Shown here piece by piece: positions 9,352-15,950 of a stretch of 64,000 nt of DNA. Where the stretch lies: assembly GCA_024640405.1 (NCBI GenBank), contig JAHEFB010000009.1, forward strand, positions 28,243 to 92,242, read 5' to 3'. The position numbers were made by a program, and so were the translations under genes. This stretch comes from Alphaproteobacteria bacterium. GTDB taxonomy: Bacteria > Pseudomonadota > Alphaproteobacteria > Rhizobiales > Aestuariivirgaceae. Each line of letters begins with the position of its first letter. Position 1 is the first letter of the stretch. The notes under the pieces were generated by a model. That model saw only the letters and a list, made by a program, of their open reading frames with translations, was not told the DNA's origin and ran no database searches.

Positions 9352-10766
9352 GATGCGATCCTTTCCAGGTCTGCGGTTTCAGCCTCCACCTCGATGCGGG
9401 CGGCCAGTACGTCGGAACGCGCCGGATCGAGGCCGACATAGATGACAGCCGGGCCCCTGATGCCGCCAAGCGCCAGTGTCCTGGTCAGGGTGGCAATGCT
9501 GCCGGTGGCGGTTTTCTGATTTTCACGGGTACCGTTTTCCACCACCACGACGGGCGTGTCCCGGGCAATGCCGGCTGCCAGCAACCGGCGCTGGATGTGG
9601 CCTGCCTGACGCACGCCCATATAGATGGAAAATGCAGCACCCGGTTTTGCCAGCGCGGTCCAGTCGTGGTCTGCCGCGCCATCGCCTGCGGTTCCGGTCA
9701 GCATCGTGATGCTGCGGTTTTCACCGCGCCAGGTCAGCGGCAGCCTGATGGATGCGGCACAGCCAACAGCAGCGGTTATGCCGGGCACCACCTCAACCGG
9801 AATGCCGGCCTTGACCAGCGCTGCCTGCTCTTCACCTCCGTGGCCGAATACATATGGATCGCCGCCCTTGAGGCGCACGACTTTCCTGCCGGCGCGGGCA
9901 TGATGTTCCAGGATCTTGTTGATGCGGGCCTGGCTGACCGAGAGTTGGCCGGGCGTCTTGCCGACATCTATGCGCTCTGCATCGCGGCGGGCATAATCCA
10001 GGATGCCTGGACCGACCAGCCGGTCATAGACAATGACATCGGCGTCCTGCAGGCGGCGCTGGGCTTTCAATGTCAACAGGTCCGGATCACCGGGACCGGC
10101 GCCAACCAGGGAAACCGAGCCTGACGCGACGCCTTGTGAACCGGACAATGCCTCGTCGACGGCGCGTTCAAAACCTGCACCGGCATCGCGTTCGAAGGAA
10201 GCACGAAGCCGGCCAAAGAAGAACGACCGCCAGAATTCGCGGCGCGGACTGCCCTTTGCCAGACTGCGGGCAACACGCGGGCGCAGGCCGGATGCCTTTT
10301 CAACCAGGGACCCGACGGACGGCGGCAGCATGGCTTCGAGCTGTGCCTTGATGCCCTGCCCCAGTACCGGCGCAGCGCCTTCGGTGCCAATGGCGATGGT
10401 CAGCGATCCGCGTTCCACAATGGACGGCGTCAGGAAAGAGCACCTGTCCTGCCTGTCGACCACATTGACCGGAATGTTGCGCTCTGTGGCCGCTGCATGA
10501 ACCTGCCGCTCGTCGGCGTCATTCAGCCCGCAGGCAAACACCAGAGAAGCACCGTACAAGTCGTCTGCGTCAAATTCCCGCGGTATCAGGCATGCGCCTG
10601 CCGAGTCGATTCCGGCTGATAGCTCGCGCCCGGCAAACGGGGTGACGACAACAATCCGCGCTGGTGTTTTGGCCATCAGCCGCAGCTTTTGCGCAGCTTC
10701 AGCGCCGCCACCGACAATGACGACGGTCTTTGCTTCGAGATCCAGAAATACCGGATAATAGCGCAT
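9348..10766 (-). CDS. cysG: Siroheme synthase (dehydrogenase/ferrochelatase plus SUMT)
   Basis: N-terminal VGGG Rossmann fold and NVVD; C-terminal VGAGPGDPDLLT, RLKGGDP, PGITAA. Confidence 0.95.
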   Translation of the reverse strand: MRYYPVFLDLEAKTVVIVGGGAEAAQKLRLMAKTPARIVVVTPFAGRELSAGIDSAGACLIPREFDADDLYGASLVFACGLNDADERQVHAAATERNIPVNVVDRQDRCSFLTPSIVERGSLTIAIGTEGAAPVLGQGIKAQLEAMLPPSVGSLVEKASGLRPRVARSLAKGSPRREFWRSFFFGRLRASFERDAGAGFERAVDEALSGSQGVASGSVSLVGAGPGDPDLLTLKAQRRLQDADVIVYDRLVGPGILDYARRDAERIDVGKTPGQLSVSQARINKILEHHARAGRKVVRLKGGDPYVFGHGGEEQAALVKAGIPVEVVPGITAAVGCAASIRLPLTWRGENRSITMLTGTAGDGAADHDWTALAKPGAAFSIYMGVRQAGHIQRRLLAAGIARDTPVVVVENGTRENQKTATGSIATLTRTLALGGIRGPAVIYVGLDPARSDVLAARIEVEAETADLERIAS

Positions 10767-10784
10767 GGTCAGATCACTCCAGCC

Positions 10785-10850
10785 TGTTCGTTAAACCGAT
10801 CAACAGGATTGAAATATAGAATTGTTCGTTAAAAAGAACAAGACGTTCTT
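10785..10850. promoter_or_regulatory. Candidate operator upstream of cysG: direct repeat TGTTCGTTAAA (10785-10795, 10823-10833) and inverted repeat AAGAAC-N5-GTTCTT (10834-10850)
   Basis: Repeats seen directly in an AT-rich promoter region; regulator unknown. Confidence 0.4.
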
Positions 10851-10960
10851 TTGTGTTTATGTAGAGTCATATCGGGATTTTAAACGTCGCAACCCTGGCC
10901 CGGCAGGCCGGCTCATCAGGAAATGCGGGGCGTCATTTAGTCACGATGCTGATTTTCCCA

Positions 10961-10989
10961 CTTGACGCGCGGAAGCATTCAGGTAAGTT
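10961..10989 (+). promoter_or_regulatory. Sigma70-type promoter CTTGAC-N17-TAAGTT (unit 1)
   Basis: Matches the alphaproteobacterial CTTGAC-N17-(C)TATAT-type consensus; duplicated at 11195. Confidence 0.6.
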
Positions 10990-10994
10990 TCATG

Positions 10995-11149
10995 CCACAT
11001 TGACTGGGGGGAGCGAGTCTTCACATACATCTGGCAGACCCCTGTTTCACCCCTTTTTCCGTGAAACGGATTTGCCGGTGCGCCCTTCAGACTCAACCGG
11101 TTGATGAATATGAAAGGCGCAGGAGCTGGTTGCAGCCCCTGCGCCTTTT
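10995..11149 (+). ncRNA. Candidate structured ncRNA, copy 1 (rod with 12x12 nt central bubble plus terminator)
   Basis: Hand-folded stems 10998-11007/11097-11106, 11015-11020/11089-11094, 11033-11038/11071-11076 and 11042-11050/11061-11069. G-U pairs favour the + strand. Confidence 0.55.
11113..11149 (+). terminator. Rho-independent terminator AAAGGCGCAGG...CCTGCGCC-TTTT, possibly bidirectional
   Basis: GC-rich inverted repeat followed by a T4 tract. Confidence 0.7.
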
Positions 11150-11194
11150 CAATATCCGGATTGCCGGCTTCGGGGGAACCGCCGATTTTCTCCA

Positions 11195-11223
11195 CTTGAC
11201 GAAGCCGGGCGCAACGTTAACCA
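11195..11223 (+). promoter_or_regulatory. Sigma70-type promoter CTTGAC-N17-TAACCA (unit 2)
   Basis: Same -35 context (GATTTTC..CCACTTGACG) and same spacer length as unit 1, but a different spacer sequence. Confidence 0.5.
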
Positions 11224-11227
11224 CTAG

Positions 11228-11347
11228 CCACAGCACTTGACCGGGGAGTGAGTCTTGCACGACTTCAAGCAAACAAACCTGTCTTCATGGTTCTCCGCAA
11301 ACCGGCGGGACTGCTGATGGCGTCATCTGATTCAACCGGCTGGTGGA
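11228..11347 (+). ncRNA. Candidate structured ncRNA, copy 2 (paralogue of copy 1); 3' end uncertain
   Basis: Shares TTGACYGG-GGAGY-GAGTCTT and GAYTCAACCGGYTGRTG blocks with copy 1 at similar spacing; same stem architecture. Confidence 0.5.
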
Positions 11348-11747
11348 CCTTTCCGCCTGAAGGCCCGGTCACGGTGCATGGCGTGTCCGGCGAACAAGTT
11401 GCCTATGCCGGCAAGCCGGAATTACGAATTACGGTGACAGTTTACTAAATGCACTTATTAGCGCATGCGAAACCCTATGGCTCGCCTGTCCCGTATCGTT
11501 GTGTCCGACTAGCTGAACCATGTGACCCAGCGGGGCAAGTGGCCTGTTGTAGTTTTCTTGCGGGACGGGAACGGTCCAACCTTTGAAGCGGCCGTATTGG
11601 CCAGAGCCAGGCCGGCAGGCATGACACGGCAACCCCTCCATCATCCAACGCAAGATGAAATGCCGCTTTCCCACGGGCGATTAAGAAGCTAGGGTCCAGA
11701 CCCTATTCATCGTCCCCGCCTGCCCTTCGACCGAAAGCCTTTTGCCC

Positions 11748-12446
11748 ATGCCGTTCGTGATACCCGAGCCCAGCCGCACCGCCCTGCCCGTTGCCGGCAC
11801 ATCAGACAGGTTTCCGGTGCGCCGGGTCTACTGTGTCGGGCGCAACTATGCCGCCCATACAATCGAAATGGGTCATGATCCGGACCGGGAAGACCCGTTC
11901 TTCTTTCTCAAGTGCCCGGAAAATATTGTCACGGCAGATGCAGGCGGCGAGATAGCCTTCCCCTACCCGCCCGCTTCAAATGATGTCCATCACGAGATTG
12001 AAATGGTGGTGGCGCTGAAATCCGGCGGCAGCGACATTGCCCCGGATGACGCACTGTCGCACGTCTACGGCTACGGAGCCGGTCTCGACATGACGCGCCG
12101 TGACCTGCAGGGCGAAATGAAGAAGGCCGGCCGGCCCTGGGAAATCGGCAAGGCGTTTGATCATTCCGCGCCGATGTCGGGGCTGGTTGCGGCGTCTGCG
12201 GCAGGCCATCCGGATGCAGGCGACATATGGCTGAAGGTCAATGGCGAGGTGCGCCAGCAAGGCGACCTGAACCAGATGATCTGGAAGGTGCCTGAAATGA
12301 TCAGCTATCTGTCCGGGCTGTTTGAACTGGCCGCCGGTGACCTGATCATGTCGGGCACCCCGTCAGGCGTCGGTCCGGTGGTTCGAGGCGATCGTCTGGA
12401 AGGATTTGTGGAAGGTGCCGGCGGTTTTCACTGCAAGGTCGTCTGA
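11748..12446 (+). CDS. Fumarylacetoacetate hydrolase family protein (fumarylpyruvate hydrolase-like)
   Basis: RVYCVGRNYAAH, HHEIEM, GLDMTRRDLQ, WEIGKAFD and SGTPSGVG motifs. Confidence 0.92.
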   Translation: MPFVIPEPSRTALPVAGTSDRFPVRRVYCVGRNYAAHTIEMGHDPDREDPFFFLKCPENIVTADAGGEIAFPYPPASNDVHHEIEMVVALKSGGSDIAPDDALSHVYGYGAGLDMTRRDLQGEMKKAGRPWEIGKAFDHSAPMSGLVAASAAGHPDAGDIWLKVNGEVRQQGDLNQMIWKVPEMISYLSGLFELAAGDLIMSGTPSGVGPVVRGDRLEGFVEGAGGFHCKVV

Positions 12447-12670: not shown

Positions 12671-14083
12671 TCAGCACTCCGGCAGGTTCACCGCGAGACC
12701 GCCGAGACTGGTTTCCTTGTATTTTTCAGACATGTCATGGCCGGTCTGGCGCATGGCTTCGATACAGTTGTCCAGCGGCATGAAATGCTGTCCATCGCCG
12801 TGCAGGGCCAGAGACGCAGCCGAGACGGCCTTGATGGCGCCCAGGCCGTTGCGCTCGATACAGGGCACCTGCACCAGCCCGCCCACCGGGTCGCAACTCA
12901 TGCCGAGGTGGTGCTCCAGTGCGATTTCTGCGGCATTTTCAATCTGCTCGTTGGTGCCGCCAAGGGCTGCGCAAAACCCTGCCGCCGCCATCGCTGCCGC
13001 AGAGCCCACTTCCCCCTGACAGCCGACCTCGGCGCCGGAAATCGAGGCATTGTGCTTGATCAGGCCGCCGATTGCGGCTGCCGTCAGCAGGAAGGTCCGC
13101 AATCCCTCGTCGTTGGAGCCGATGCAGTGGTCGCGGTAATACCGCATGACAGCCGGCACAACCCCGGCAGCGCCGTTGGTGGGAGATGTGACCACCTTGC
13201 CGCCGGCCGCATTTTCCTCGTTCACCGCCATGGCATAGACCGACATCCAGTCATTGGCGACATGCGGCTGCGCCATGTTGGAACCGCGCTGTTCGACAAG
13301 GCGTTGGTGTATCTTCCTGGCGCGCCGGCGAACACTGAGTCCGCCGGGCAGGATACCGTCTTCGCGCAGGCCGCGGTCGATGCAGTCCGACATGGCTTTC
13401 CAGACACCATCCAGCCGTTCATCAAGCTGTGAAATGTCGATGTGTGCGGTTTCGTTGGCGCGCTTCATCTCGGCTATGGTCTTGCCATGCTTGGCGCCCA
13501 GCGCCAGCATCTCCTTCGCGGTTGAAAACGGATAGGTGTATCCGGCTTCCTTCTTGGCGGTTTTCAGGCCCGACGGTGTGCGGTCGAGGTCGGCCAGTTC
13601 ATCGGCCGTCAGCACGAACCCGCCGCCGATGGAGTAATAGGTCTCTTCGAACCGCAAGGCGCCCGCGGCATCAAACGCGCGCAGCACCATGCCGTTGGCA
13701 TGGCCTTCAAGCGGCGGCCCGTAGTCGAATACCAGATCGTTGTCCGGATCGAACTTCAACTGCCCGAGCCCGTCGGGCTGCACGACGCGGCTTTCGGCAA
13801 GCCTGGCCAGGGCCAGTTCCGCTTCATCCGGGTCAATGGTTGCAGGCTCGAAACCGCACAGCCCCAGCATGACCGCGCGATCGGTGGAATGGCCCTTGCC
13901 GGTAAACGCCAGCGACCCGTGCAGTGAGCACTGAACGTGCGCTGCCGGCCCTGCCCCCGGGATCGGCGTCCTGCCGTGGCGCAACTCGTCGAGAAACCTT
14001 GCAGCCGCCGTCATCGGCCCCATGGTATGGGACGAGGACGGGCCGACGCCGATCTTGAATATGTCGAAAACCGAAAGAAACAT
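12671..14083 (-). CDS. sdaA: L-serine ammonia-lyase (Fe-S dependent)
   Basis: [34 protein letters not shown] and [16 protein letters not shown] motifs. Confidence 0.95.
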
Positions 14084-14197
14084 GGCAACCTGTGCTCCAG
14101 CTATGGAGATAGCAGTATCTTAATACATGACCGGCGCAATTCAGTCTGCGACACCACGATGCAGGATCACGGCACGAGGGGCAGCAATCCGTTCAAA

Positions 14198-15196
14198 TCA
14201 GCCTGCATGCATGCGCTGTTTTCGTTCGCGTATCATGCGGGTGGCTTCATCGGAACCATCATGAAACGTGCCGAACCAGCGATCCCAGGGCATTTCCTGA
14301 TTGCCGTAATTGCACTCGAAGAAGCGGTGGTGCAACTGGTGATAAAACGTACCCAGCGCCAGCCTGCGCCTGTCCTTTATCAGCAAGTCCTCATATCCGG
14401 TGTGGGTCATGGCTGCGCCCAGCGCCTGATAGTGCAGATTGTAGATGACATGCAGCGGGTGCGATGCCGCAACCAGATGGATCATCACGGACGTGAAGTA
14501 CAACAGGTGCTCTACCGGGTGCATGGATGCCCCGGACCAGGGTCCGACATTCACGTTGCGATGATGCAGCGAGTGGACATGCCGGTAGAAAAACGGCACA
14601 TGCAACAGCCGGTGCACCCAGTAAAAATGAAATGCCGACCAGATCGGCACCAGTACGAAAAACCCAAGGAACCATATAGGGTTGTCTGCAAAACTGGTTG
14701 TCGGCAGATAGCCGTTTGCCATGGCCCACAGAGTGATCACCTGGAACGCCGTCCAGAAAAACACACCGCTGCCCAGCGACCAGAACATGTTGTCGTGCAC
14801 CTGGTTCCTGAACGCGAAGCTGCGGCTGCCGCTAGCCATGTCGCGGTGATCGAACTTCAGCTTCGAGCCCTGAGCGCACCGGATATAGAAATAGTAATGC
14901 AGCGATCCGGCGACCGCCAGCAGCAGCCCCATGTTTACAATCCAGGTCTGAAACACCCAGCCGAATGCCAGAACCCTGGCGTCATCGAGGTCAGGATACA
15001 GCCAGTACCAGGCCGCCACAGACACCAACAGCAACAGCACCCGCTCACTCAGCGACAGCCAGTTGCGCCAGAACCAGCGTGCGAGAAAACCCGGGTCCGG
15101 CGGCCACGCGAAAATGGATTTGTCGGCCAGCGGCAGTTCGGGATGGTAGTTCCACCTGCCTTTCTTTCCAGGTTCACCAACCTGGTCAGTTGGCAT
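14198..15196 (-). CDS. Sterol desaturase / fatty acid hydroxylase superfamily protein
   Basis: His boxes HFYWVHRLLH, HSLHH and FYHQLHH; several TM segments. Confidence 0.88.
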   Translation of the reverse strand: MPTDQVGEPGKKGRWNYHPELPLADKSIFAWPPDPGFLARWFWRNWLSLSERVLLLLVSVAAWYWLYPDLDDARVLAFGWVFQTWIVNMGLLLAVAGSLHYYFYIRCAQGSKLKFDHRDMASGSRSFAFRNQVHDNMFWSLGSGVFFWTAFQVITLWAMANGYLPTTSFADNPIWFLGFFVLVPIWSAFHFYWVHRLLHVPFFYRHVHSLHHRNVNVGPWSGASMHPVEHLLYFTSVMIHLVAASHPLHVIYNLHYQALGAAMTHTGYEDLLIKDRRRLALGTFYHQLHHRFFECNYGNQEMPWDRWFGTFHDGSDEATRMIRERKQRMHAG

Positions 15197-15950
15197 AACC
15201 GGAGCCCTCGTCGTCCAGAATGATTTTCAGCTCGCTGAAATGACAGTCTGCCTGACCGGGGTATTCTTCAATTTCACGGGCGGTTTTTTCCGCCACCTCG
15301 TCTGACAGGACCTTGAGTTTCCGGCCTGTCCACAACGCCTTGATGTAGGTCTCCGCAGCACGCTCAAAATAGTACATGCGGTTGAATGCATCAGCCACCG
15401 TGTCGCCAATGACCATGATGCCGTGGTTGCCCATGACCAGGACCTTTTTAGCCGGATCCGAGAGATGCCGGCAGGCGCGTTCAGCCTCTTCCTCGAAGGC
15501 AAGGCCTCCATACTCGTCATCGATTGCATACCGGTTGAAGAAGATCGCGCAGTTCTGGTCGATTGGCGGCAGGCTGGGGTCGTCCAGCGTCGCCAGAACG
15601 GTTGCGTGAATGGAGTGCACATGCAGCGCCACGCGGGCGTGCGGACACAACCGGTGGATGGCGCCGTGCAGGCCCCATGCCGTCGGGTCCGGCGCATCGG
15701 GCCGCTTCATGGTTTCGGAATCATTGGCATCCAGCAACAACAGGTCCGACGCCTTGATGCGGGAAAAATGCATCTGGTTGGGGTTCATGAGGAACTGGGT
15801 ACCATCGTCGTTCACCGCCACGGAAAAATGGTTGGCGACACCTTCGTGCAGATTCAGACGCGCCGTCCACCGGAAGGCGGCGGCCAGGTCGGCGCGGTCT
15901 TCAAAATGGTCAAGACGGTTGGGGCGCAATGGTGTGGCTGCAGTGGTCAT
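15186..15950 (-). CDS. Class II aldolase/adducin family protein
   Basis: EGVANHFS, LHGAIH, LHVHS and MGNHG metal ligands. Confidence 0.9.
   Translation of the reverse strand: MTTAATPLRPNRLDHFEDRADLAAAFRWTARLNLHEGVANHFSVAVNDDGTQFLMNPNQMHFSRIKASDLLLLDANDSETMKRPDAPDPTAWGLHGAIHRLCPHARVALHVHSIHATVLATLDDPSLPPIDQNCAIFFNRYAIDDEYGGLAFEEEAERACRHLSDPAKKVLVMGNHGIMVIGDTVADAFNRMYYFERAAETYIKALWTGRKLKVLSDEVAEKTAREIEEYPGQADCHFSELKIILDDEGSGYAN

What the first reader, a model, noticed from the sequence alone, without database searches (positions are those of the whole stretch)
10950..11350. Tandem pair of paralogous, separately promoted, 6S-like structured ncRNAs
Two units about 235 bp apart share GATTTTC..CCACTTGACG, a 17-nt spacer of different sequence and a TAA-type -10 box. 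Each is followed by GCCACA..TTGACYGG-GGAGY-GAGTCTT and, 75-79 nt later, GAYTCAACCGGYTGRTG. By hand each folds into a ~110-nt rod: closing stem, asymmetric loop (GGAGY opposite AA), GAGUC/GAYUC stem, a symmetric central bubble (12x12 nt in copy 1, about 14x14 in copy 2) and a terminal stem-loop. Stems are kept while sequence diverges, and G-U pairs favour the + strand. Copy 1 ends in an intrinsic terminator whose 5' arm can alternatively pair with 11079-11089, an antiterminator-like geometry. I do not recognise this as a riboswitch, tmRNA, RNase P or SRP RNA. The open-bubble architecture recalls 6S RNA but is shorter and not at the usual zapA-ygfA locus. It could be a new promoter-mimic or protein-sponge RNA family, divergent from the sulfite reductase operon.
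Basis: partly seen in the sequence, partly recalled or inferred. Interest (0 to 1): 0.8.

Follow-up and report, generated by a model that had tools for sequence, protein, structure and literature searches.

The report
Duplicated promoter-leader module, one small RNA
Two neighbouring copies of a promoter plus structured RNA leader, found so far only in Anderseniella-like marine bacteria, probably make one small non-coding RNA and one orphaned gene leader; there is no sign that they are 6S-like.

Summary
The two units are real, sit at the stated coordinates, and are reproduced by four independent per-run assemblies. No Rfam family matches them, 6S included.

Comparison with 10 related Anderseniella-type loci changes the reading. 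The family-wide conserved part is a sigma-70-type promoter (CTGATTTTCYCACTTGACG, 17 nt, TAAnnn) plus the first ~25 transcribed nt. Those nt carry a G-rich, Shine-Dalgarno-like box: YTGRCYGGGG(GG)AGYGAG.

In relatives the same module heads the 5' UTRs of unrelated genes: FAA-hydrolase, a giant RTX-type protein and a small secreted protein.

The ~110-nt rod exists only in a sub-lineage (window copy 1, copy 2, L008, L078).
- Its stems are conserved (91% identity) while its loops are near-neutral (56%), with a few compensatory changes.
- Its "open bubble" is largely closed in L008 and deleted in L006 and L014.

Copy 1 (rod plus strong terminator, ~155 nt) is best read as a small non-coding RNA derived from such a leader. 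Copy 2 has no terminator and folds no better than shuffled sequence. It aligns with RTX-gene leaders until a REP/RayT remnant cuts it off, so it is probably an orphaned leader.

No RNA-seq evidence could be obtained. This is a modestly interesting, lineage-restricted new candidate of a known kind.

The parts
10948..10989 (+). Copy 1 promoter: T-rich upstream box GCTGATTTTCC, -35 CTTGAC (10961-10966), 17-nt spacer, -10 TAAGTT (10984-10989)
   Evidence: Sequence. The block is the best-conserved part of the 9-unit alignment and of the nhmmer profile, window hit E = 4e-21. Transcription itself is inferred.
10998..11021 (+). Copy 1 5' box: helix-1 5' strand CAUUGACUGG, G-rich SD-like loop GGGGAGC (11008-11014), helix-2 5' strand GAGUCU
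   Evidence: Present in all family members, including L096 and L099 where the canonical promoter is replaced. No start codon lies 5-10 nt after GGAG in copy 1 (my reading).
10998..11106 (+). Copy 1 rod (~110 nt): helix 1, G-box internal loop, helix 2, 10x10 bubble, helices 3-5 and a terminal loop
   Evidence: The MFE equals the centroid, with z = -2.2 on + and +0.2 on -. The same fold appears in L008 (z = -4.4). Paired columns are 91% identical against 56% for unpaired columns. Four pairs show changes on both sides. CM R1 finds only four rods in 177 kb.
11113..11153 (+). Intrinsic terminator of copy 1 (GC-rich 16-nt arms, 4-nt loop, UUUUCAAU tail). It predicts a transcript of about 155 nt.
   Evidence: inverted repeat I3, 94% complementary. 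The hairpin is kept in L008 but its U-tract is weaker.
11181..11223 (+). Copy 2 promoter: GCCGATTTTCTCC, -35 CTTGAC (11195-11200), 17-nt spacer, -10 TAACCA within GTTAACCA (11216-11223)
   Evidence: nhmmer E = 3e-13. It is of the 'type 2' form shared with L011, L012 and L013, which read GTTAACCAT.
11229..11395 (+). Copy 2 leader: G-box GGGGAGU at 11243-11249, rod-like outer stems 11234-11244 with 11335-11345, no terminator
   Evidence: Fold z = 0.0. It aligns with the RTX-gene leaders of L011 and L012a as far as GGTCACGGTGCATG..GTCCGG. The first terminator-like site is 300 nt downstream, at 11528-11549.
11248..11448 (+).
   Evidence: The only hit among 5.8e9 proteins is the gene call on the window's own contig. 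There is no Pfam hit. Its stop codon lies inside the REP-like repeat.
11418..11461 (.). REP-like short repeat that ends the copy 2 leader
   Evidence: Found with other flanks in several metagenome contigs. Found 2-3 times in each of L008, L012 and L013, where it flanks an intact Y1_Tnp gene in L008.
11479..11560 (+). 5' remnant of a Y1 (RayT/IS200-like) transposase gene (MARLSRIVVSD*...HVTQRG)
   Evidence: 78% identity to the REP plus the start of the Y1_Tnp gene of L008. The translation is full of stops.
11155..11173 (.). Left arm of a 19-nt inverted repeat; the right arm is 11402-11420. Together they bracket the whole of copy 2.
   Evidence: I1, 84% complementary. Unique in the window and in related loci. 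Its meaning is unknown and it may be chance.

Best explanation
The two units are tandem paralogues of a lineage-specific expression module of Anderseniella-like Hyphomicrobiales. The module has two parts. The first is a sigma-70-type promoter (T-rich box, CTTGAC, 17 nt, TAAnnn). The second is the first ~25 nt of the transcript, which carry a G-rich, Shine-Dalgarno-like box flanked by two helix-forming arms.

In related genomes the module starts the 5' UTR of unrelated genes: FAA-hydrolase, a giant RTX-type protein and a small secreted protein. The family is therefore a reused promoter-plus-leader, not a 6S-like RNA.

In this window, copy 1 closes its 5' box into a ~110-nt hairpin rod and stops at a strong intrinsic terminator. 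That would give a ~155-nt non-coding RNA that has become independent of any downstream gene. Copy 2 is the leader of a lost RTX-type gene, cut off by a REP/RayT insertion. If it is still active it reads on towards the FAA-hydrolase gene.

Most likely mechanism (inferred, about 0.3): a 5'-terminal helix displaying an SD-like single strand is a shared post-transcriptional handle. It would act as a 5' stabiliser of the STAB-SD type, or as a docking site for one common factor (30S subunit, a CU-rich sRNA or a protein). Copy 1 would then compete for, or report on, that same factor.

Shown here: the sequence anatomy, its conservation, the gene contexts and the strand bias. Inferred: transcription, transcript ends and function.
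For: - A profile of 9 units hits only the window (E = 4e-21 and 3e-13) and the loci L006/L097, L008-10, L011, L012 (twice), L013, L014 and L078. L003-5 match weakly.
- Downstream contexts differ between loci:
  - FAA-hydrolase in L006/L097 and L078. L096 and L099 have the G-box only.
  - A giant RTX/HemolysinCabind gene in L011 and L003.
  - Two unrelated ORFs in L012.
  - DUF4261 and Imm11 in L014.
- Type 2 leaders have no terminator and run into ORFs.
- Copy 2 aligns with those leaders up to about 11395. The REP-like repeat and the rayT remnant follow.
- Copy 1 has a strong terminator and a + strand-specific stable rod.
- Window against L008: paired columns 91% identical, unpaired 56%, against 61% at four-fold sites of cysG. 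Changes include the compensatory GAGUC/GACUC to AAGUC/GACUU and CAC/GUG to CAU/AUG.
- In L008 the unit is kept although the next called gene is convergent. This argues for a role independent of a downstream gene.
- No coding signal and no Rfam family.
- Reuse of promoters apart from their genes is documented (PMC3575422). SD-like 5' stabilisers are documented (PMC3997798, PMC4113751).
Against: - There is no transcript evidence at all. The metatranscriptomes from the same study hold nothing from this organism.
- The -10 boxes are weak and the generic promoter scan is silent.
- Only four rod sequences exist, so covariation is not significant against shuffles.
- L078's MFE is not the rod, and copy 2 is not thermodynamically distinguished.
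- The G-box function is pure inference. No partner was identified, and the complementary motif is not enriched in the window.
- Copy 1 could equally be a regulated attenuator.
- The taxonomic spread is poorly sampled, because both collection scans were inefficient.
Confidence: 0.5

Rival explanations
1. One reading: both units are 6S-like RNAs, or another kind of protein sponge, whose open central bubble mimics an open promoter and binds RNA polymerase.
For: Copy 1 is a rod with a symmetric 10x10 internal bubble between helices. Truncated 6S RNAs reduced to the bubble plus short arms still work in vitro (PMC8876501), so small size alone does not exclude this.
Against: No RF00013 match even at E <= 10. 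The bubble is mostly closed in the L008 orthologue (5x5). It is deleted in the shortened L006/L097 and L014 versions, which keep only helix 1, the G-box and helix 2. The bubble columns are the least conserved. Family members are mRNA leaders elsewhere. The units are not at the usual 6S locus.
Confidence: 0.05
2. Copy 1 is a cis-acting attenuator or riboswitch-like leader. Its terminator is conditionally read through, so that it controls copy 2 and the FAA-hydrolase gene downstream.
For: Type 1 units lie upstream of FAA-hydrolase on the same strand in L078, L006/L097, L096 and L099. Hairpins with weak U-tails follow the unit in L078 and L006. An 8-of-9-bp alternative pairing between 11079-87 and the terminator's 5' arm exists (my reading).
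Against: The alternative pairing is not conserved in L008. About 590 nt separate the terminator from the FAA-hydrolase ATG. That stretch holds a second promoter, a REP and a transposase remnant. FAA-hydrolase has its own conserved proximal upstream element, present even in L098, which lacks the unit. In L008 the unit is conserved with no same-strand gene behind it.
Confidence: 0.15
3. Both units are non-functional relics: duplicated promoter/leader DNA left behind by rearrangements in a recombination hot spot between cysG and the FAA-hydrolase gene.
For: This intergenic region differs in almost every related locus, through insertions of GSDH, Y1_Tnp/REP, RTX genes or immunity genes. Copy 2 looks decapitated. 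Copy 2's fold has z = 0.
Against: Copy 1 is much better conserved with L008 than four-fold sites are (77% over 210 nt and 91% in stems, against 61%). It also keeps its terminator hairpin. The flanking intergenic DNA is unalignable.
Confidence: 0.15
4. The units act at the DNA level: REP/BIME- or MITE-like palindromic repeats, or operator arrays for a transcription factor, with no role for the RNA fold.
For: A REP-like repeat and a rayT remnant lie next door. A 19-nt inverted repeat brackets copy 2. CACTTGAC-like words recur at -35 and at about +5.
Against: The units share no sequence with the REP-like repeat. There are only two copies in 64 kb, and none outside the syntenic spot in 177 kb of related loci. 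Multiple G-U pairs make the fold + strand-specific. Compensatory changes would be unnecessary for a protein-binding DNA site.
Confidence: 0.1

Closest known systems
Reused or 'putative mobile' promoters (promoter plus 5' UTR copied in front of unrelated genes; PMC3575422)
   Same: A ~95-nt block of promoter plus initial transcribed region is highly similar in front of non-homologous genes. This holds both within one genome (L012a and L012b) and across related genomes.
   Different: Here the copied block includes a conserved RNA-level element, the G-box with its flanking helices. One copy ends in a terminator without any gene. No mobilisation mechanism was identified.
Tandem paralogous sRNAs of Alphaproteobacteria, e.g. 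AbcR1/AbcR2 (PMC3712013)
   Same: Two homologous units lie side by side in one intergenic region, each with its own promoter, in a member of the Hyphomicrobiales/Rhizobiales.
   Different: No Rfam match to the AbcR family or any other alpha-proteobacterial sRNA family. Only copy 1 has a terminator. Relatives of the units are mRNA leaders. Targets and Hfq dependence are unknown.
6S RNA (RF00013)
   Same: Copy 1 is a rod-like hairpin with an internal bubble.
   Different: About 110 nt instead of about 180. No covariance-model match. The bubble is not conserved among orthologues. The genomic context is different.
5' mRNA stabilisers: STAB-SD of Bacillus cry3A and 5'-terminal stem-loops (PMC3997798, PMC4113751)
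   Same: An SD-like GGAG-containing sequence lies close to the 5' end with no start codon at initiation distance. It is combined with a helix that starts about 4 nt from the predicted 5' end.
   Different: Those systems are described in Firmicutes and E. coli, not in this lineage. No stability data exist here. The G-box may sit in an internal loop rather than a free single strand.

Membership tests
6S RNA (RF00013) | Match to the Rfam covariance model | tested here: not met
   No hit at the gathering score in the window. No hit at E <= 10 in 10700-11800. None in 9 related loci.
6S RNA (RF00013) | Large central bubble conserved among orthologues, flanked by long helices (~180 nt in total) | tested here: not met
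   The rod is about 110 nt. The bubble is 10x10 in the window and about 5x5 in L008. It is absent from the L006/L097 and L014 mini-hairpins. The bubble columns are the least conserved.
6S RNA (RF00013) | Binding to RNA polymerase holoenzyme and templating of pRNA | not testable with these tools
   Needs co-immunoprecipitation and pRNA sequencing.
AbcR1/AbcR2 and other curated alpha-proteobacterial sRNA families | Match to the family covariance model | tested here: not met
   All 4227 Rfam models were scanned. The only matches, at E of 1-8, were terminator-type noise.
Independent terminator-ended sRNA gene | Own promoter, no ORF, intrinsic terminator within ~50-300 nt, conservation beyond the neutral rate | tested here: met
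   Met for copy 1 only. Promoter-like block. Terminator. No coding signal. 77% identity overall and 91% in stems, against 61% at four-fold sites. Copy 2 lacks a terminator.
Independent terminator-ended sRNA gene | Detected transcript of the predicted size | tested here: inconclusive
   Only three small metatranscriptomes come from the same study, and they hold nothing from this organism. Runs X18 and X19 behave like DNA.
Reused promoter / 5' leader module | The same upstream block in front of non-homologous genes | tested here: met
   Downstream genes are FAA-hydrolase, an RTX-type giant gene, 217-aa and 238-aa unrelated ORFs (BLASTP E = 9.3), and DUF4261/Imm11.
STAB-SD-type 5' stabiliser | SD-like sequence near the 5' end that is not followed by a start codon | tested here: met
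   GGGGGGAGCGAG or GGGGAGUGAG lies at about +12 to +25. There is no AUG/GUG/UUG 5-10 nt downstream in type 1. Type 2 has a UUG, but the frames it opens stop after very different lengths in the family members read (my reading).
STAB-SD-type 5' stabiliser | Increases transcript half-life through 30S binding | not testable with these tools
   Needs reporter and half-life assays.
REP/BIME elements of a REPtron | Short palindromic repeat, many copies per genome, associated with a RayT/Y1 transposase | tested here: not met
   The units occur only at this locus in the window and in related loci, and they are + strand-biased. The neighbouring 11418-11461 repeat does meet these criteria.

The most novel reading that the evidence does not exclude
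Copy 1, with its L008 and L078 orthologues, is a new trans-acting RNA born from an mRNA leader. It displays the same G-rich box as the leaders of the FAA-hydrolase and RTX-type genes. It could therefore act as a leader mimic that titrates whatever binds that box (a protein, 30S subunits or a CU-rich sRNA), tuning a small regulon.
Probability: 0.15. Interest if true: 0.6.

Novelty: new member of a known kind. Interest (0 to 1): 0.3.

Why it matters
If the reading is right, this locus shows how a promoter-plus-leader cassette is copied in front of different genes. It also shows how one copy can turn into a free-standing small RNA once its gene is lost or replaced. That would be a concrete example of sRNA birth from an mRNA leader in a little-studied marine alphaproteobacterial genus.

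The conserved G-rich 5' box is a testable candidate for a shared post-transcriptional control or stability signal. It does not bear on 6S biology. Its known range is narrow (one genus-level lineage), so the general impact is limited.

Tried and rejected
- **Rfam.** Scanned at gathering and at E <= 10 thresholds, on the window and on 9 homologous loci. Nothing relevant.
- **Genome-contig scan.** The pattern GGAGNGAGTCTT..GAYTCAACCGG gave only two chance-like hits, in Ignavibacteriales and Bryobacteraceae. In hindsight it was too strict, because L008 and L078 read GACTTAACCGG and GACTTTACCGG. Absence from reference genomes is therefore not established.
- **Metagenome-contig scan.** 79 were chance matches, including one soil sequence repeated about 20 times, and only L078 was real.
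- **RNA evidence.** Metatranscriptomes of the same study hold no reads of this organism. X18 and X19 look like DNA.
- **Population variation.** Other metagenomes gave only identical low-coverage pieces.
- **Coding reading of the 66-aa ORF.** Rejected.
- **Conserved long-range closure around the G-box in all members.** A rigid search was significant only for the window copy 1 and L008.
- **Complementary C-rich target motif in the window.** Not enriched.
- **Inverted repeat bracketing copy 2 as a mobile-element end.** No other copies found.
- **CtrA control of type 2 promoters.** The -10 region contains TTAACCAT. This is noted only as an idea from my own knowledge and was not tested.
Full report
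**1. The observation**

The region 10940-11350 contains two units 233-235 bp apart.
- They share an upstream T-rich box plus CCACTTGACG.
- A 17-nt spacer of unrelated sequence follows, then a TAA-type hexamer: TAAGTT at 10984-10989 and TAACCA at 11218-11223.
- Then comes GCCACA..TTGACYGG..GGAGYGAGTCTT.
- 75 and 79 nt further on (start to start) lies GAYTCAACCGGYTGRTG.

As exact matches, the two downstream motifs occur nowhere else in the 64-kb window. The upstream motif has no other match even with three mismatches allowed. Shuffles predict 0.06-1.4 matches even with mismatches.

Four independent per-run assemblies of the source metagenome reproduce the whole tandem arrangement with no difference. 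It is therefore not an assembly artefact.

- Helix 1 is 10998-11007 with 11097-11106.
- An asymmetric loop, GGGGAGC opposite AA, comes next.
- Helix 2 is 11015-20 with 11089-94.
- Then come a 10x10-nt bubble and a terminal stem-loop.
- z = -2.2 on the + strand against +0.2 on the complementary strand.

A strong intrinsic terminator follows at 11113-11149, with a UUUUCAAU tail.

Copy 2 keeps the outer stems, but its interior is irregular. Its energy equals that of shuffled sequence (z = 0.0). It has no terminator within 300 nt.

**2. Known families**

No Rfam family reaches its gathering score in the window or in nine homologous loci. With permissive filters at E <= 10, the region gives only terminator-type noise. 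There is no 6S and no alpha-proteobacterial sRNA family.

**3. Context and organism**

The units are divergent from a minus-strand cysG-DUF2849-cysI-...-cysH operon. They lie upstream of an FAA-hydrolase-family gene and a serine dehydratase gene. CysG relatives place the window in or near the genus Anderseniella (Hyphomicrobiales). The sequence comes from sediment metagenomes.

**4. Homologues**

I fetched the cysG neighbourhoods of eleven CysG variants (73-86% identical to the window's). One further locus, L078, came from a metagenome pattern scan. blastn, an alignment and an nhmmer profile of nine units give one consistent picture.

The family-wide conserved block is about 95 nt. It comprises (G)TCAC..CTGATTTTCYCACTTGACG, 17 nt, a -10-like hexamer, and then CA..YTGRCYGGGG(GG)AGYGAG.

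Two subtypes exist.
- Type 1 has -10 TAAKTT and a GGGGGGAGCGAG box. Members are window copy 1, L008-10, L078, L006/L097 and L014.
- Type 2 has -10 within GTTAACCAT and a GGGGAGTGAG box. Members are window copy 2, L011, L012 (twice) and L013. L003-5 carry a degenerate version.

L096 and L099 keep only the G-box, behind a different upstream sequence. L095 and L098 have none. L007, whose CysG is 73% identical, gave no profile hit either.

**5. What lies downstream**

| Locus | What follows the module on the same strand |
|---|---|
| L078, L006/L097, L096, L099 | The FAA-hydrolase gene, 140-330 nt away, no gene between |
| L011 | ~190-nt leader without terminator, then a GGAGG ribosome-binding site, a 25-codon upstream ORF overlapping (ATGA) the start of a giant RTX/HemolysinCabind gene |
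| L003-5 | A degenerate copy before the same kind of giant gene |
| L012 | Two copies (part of a larger duplication) before two unrelated ORFs, BLASTP E = 9.3 |
| L014 | DUF4261 and Imm11 genes |

The conserved block thus behaves as a promoter-plus-leader that has been reused in front of different genes. This phenomenon is described in general terms in PMC3575422.

**6. The rod**

A covariance model built from the four rod sequences finds only those four in 177 kb of window plus related loci.

Between window copy 1 and L008, paired columns are 91% identical and unpaired columns 56%. Four-fold degenerate sites of the adjacent cysG are 61% identical. The stems are therefore constrained while the loops drift.

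Compensatory changes occur: GAGUC/GACUC to AAGUC/GACUU, and CAC/GUG to CAU/AUG. With four sequences the shuffle controls are not significant.

Helix 1 contains several G-U pairs. The fold is markedly better on the unit's strand, both in the window and in L008.

- In L008, extra pairs close it to about 5x5 nt.
- In L006/L097 the model aligns helix 1, the G-box loop and helix 2, with the 73-nt interior replaced by 10 nt.
- L014's MFE shows the same miniature architecture, with co-varying helix 1 (GCCAACUGG with CCGG-AA-UUGGC).
- In the type 2 leaders of L011 and L012, and in L096 and L099, no such closure is evident.

The structural core, where there is one, is a 5'-proximal helix presenting the G-rich box. 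It is not an open bubble.

**7. Copy 2**

Its leader aligns with the RTX-gene leaders of L011 and L012a up to about 11395. At the point where those loci have the ribosome-binding site and gene start, the window has other features.
- A REP-like 35-44-nt repeat at 11418-11461. This repeat occurs with other flanks in several metagenome contigs. In L008 it flanks an intact Y1_Tnp gene.
- After it, a decayed 5' fragment of such a transposase gene.

The 66-aa ORF at 11248-11448 ends inside the repeat. It has no Pfam hit, and no homologue among 5.8 billion proteins apart from the gene call on its own contig.

Copy 2 is therefore best read as an orphaned leader and promoter. If active, it transcribes towards the FAA-hydrolase gene. 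It shares GAGTCTT and the 3' motif with copy 1 but not with its own orthologues. That pattern suggests gene conversion between the tandem copies, or common selection; this is my inference.

**8. Copy 1**

It is followed by a strong terminator. In L008 the whole unit, including the hairpin, is conserved although the next called gene is convergent. This favours a function independent of a downstream gene, namely a ~155-nt small RNA.

A regulated-attenuator reading remains possible but is weak.
- The proposed antiterminator pairing is not conserved in L008.
- The FAA-hydrolase gene has its own conserved proximal upstream element, present even in L098, which lacks the unit.

**9. Mechanism**

The following are shown: the promoter-like DNA, the conserved G-box, the strand-specific constrained rod in a sub-lineage, the terminator and the gene contexts.

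The rest is inferred. The G-box contains a GGAG core with a G-rich extension. It lies about 12-25 nt from the predicted 5' end, and in type 1 no start codon sits at initiation distance. The 5' helix begins about 4 nt from the predicted start.

This resembles 5' stabilisers of the STAB-SD or 5'-stem-loop type (PMC3997798, PMC4113751). It also resembles a common docking site for one trans-acting factor. I favour such a shared post-transcriptional handle, at about 0.3. Copy 1 may act as a mimic of the mRNA leaders. No partner was identified, and the complementary motif is not enriched in the window.

**10. Limits**

- No RNA data exist for this organism.
- Both collection scans were inefficient.
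- The taxonomic range and the genome-wide copy number are therefore unknown.

**11. Verdict**

The 6S-like interpretation is not supported.

The finding is a lineage-restricted promoter-plus-leader module present in two tandem copies. One copy is probably a new small non-coding RNA and the other an orphaned leader. This is a new member of a known kind, of modest interest.

Noticed in passing
window 10770-10855: The cysG promoter region is 84-90% identical in all related loci. It contains a direct repeat TGTTCGTTAAA (10785-10803 and 10823-10841) and a palindrome AAAAGAAC-N5-GTTCTTTT (10832-10852). It looks like a conserved operator for a regulator of the sulphate-assimilation operon.
   Followed up: partly
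window 11418-11461 and 11479-11560; L008 1908-2703: A REP-like 35-44-nt repeat lies next to a decayed 5' fragment of a Y1 (RayT/IS200-like) transposase gene. In L008 an intact Y1_Tnp gene is flanked by inverted copies of the same repeat, a REPtron-like arrangement. The repeat occurs with other flanks in several metagenome contigs.
   Followed up: partly
window 11155-11173 and 11402-11420: A 19-nt inverted repeat (84% complementary) brackets the whole of copy 2. No other copies exist in the window or in related loci. It may be chance or a trace of how copy 2 arrived.
   Followed up: partly
window 11645-11692; L096 ~987-1034; also L098, L099, L006, L078: A conserved element (..ATGGAATGCCGCTTTC..GCTAAAC..) lies just upstream of the FAA-hydrolase gene. 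It is present even where the unit is absent, so it may be the gene's own promoter or leader signal.
   Followed up: no
L011 ~3000-2925 (minus strand): The leader of the giant RTX-type gene ends in a GGAGG site and a 25-codon upstream ORF. The stop of that ORF overlaps the start of the main gene (ATGA), which suggests translational coupling.
   Followed up: no
window 11216-11223; L011, L012, L013 type 2 units: The -10 region of type 2 promoters reads GTTAACCAT. It contains the TTAACCAT word known (from my own knowledge) as a CtrA half-site. A second TTAAC lies 20 nt downstream. Possible cell-cycle regulator control; untested.
   Followed up: no
cysG to FAA-hydrolase intergenic region in L003-L014 and L095-L099: This intergenic spot is a rearrangement hot spot. 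Different relatives carry a GSDH gene, a giant RTX-type gene, Imm11/DUF4261 immunity-like genes, a small membrane-protein ORF, or REP/Y1_Tnp insertions.
   Followed up: partly
window 14168-14269: A weak hit of the rod covariance model (16 bits, E about 0.1) inside the long ORF 13937-15223, with many non-canonical pairs. Most likely chance.
   Followed up: no
L015, L017, L022, L025, L026 and about 15 further metagenome loci: An identical 70-nt stretch (TTTCATGGCTTGACGCCCAAGG...GGGGAGTAAG) recurs in many soil metagenome contigs. It matched the scan pattern by chance and is unrelated to the finding.
   Followed up: no
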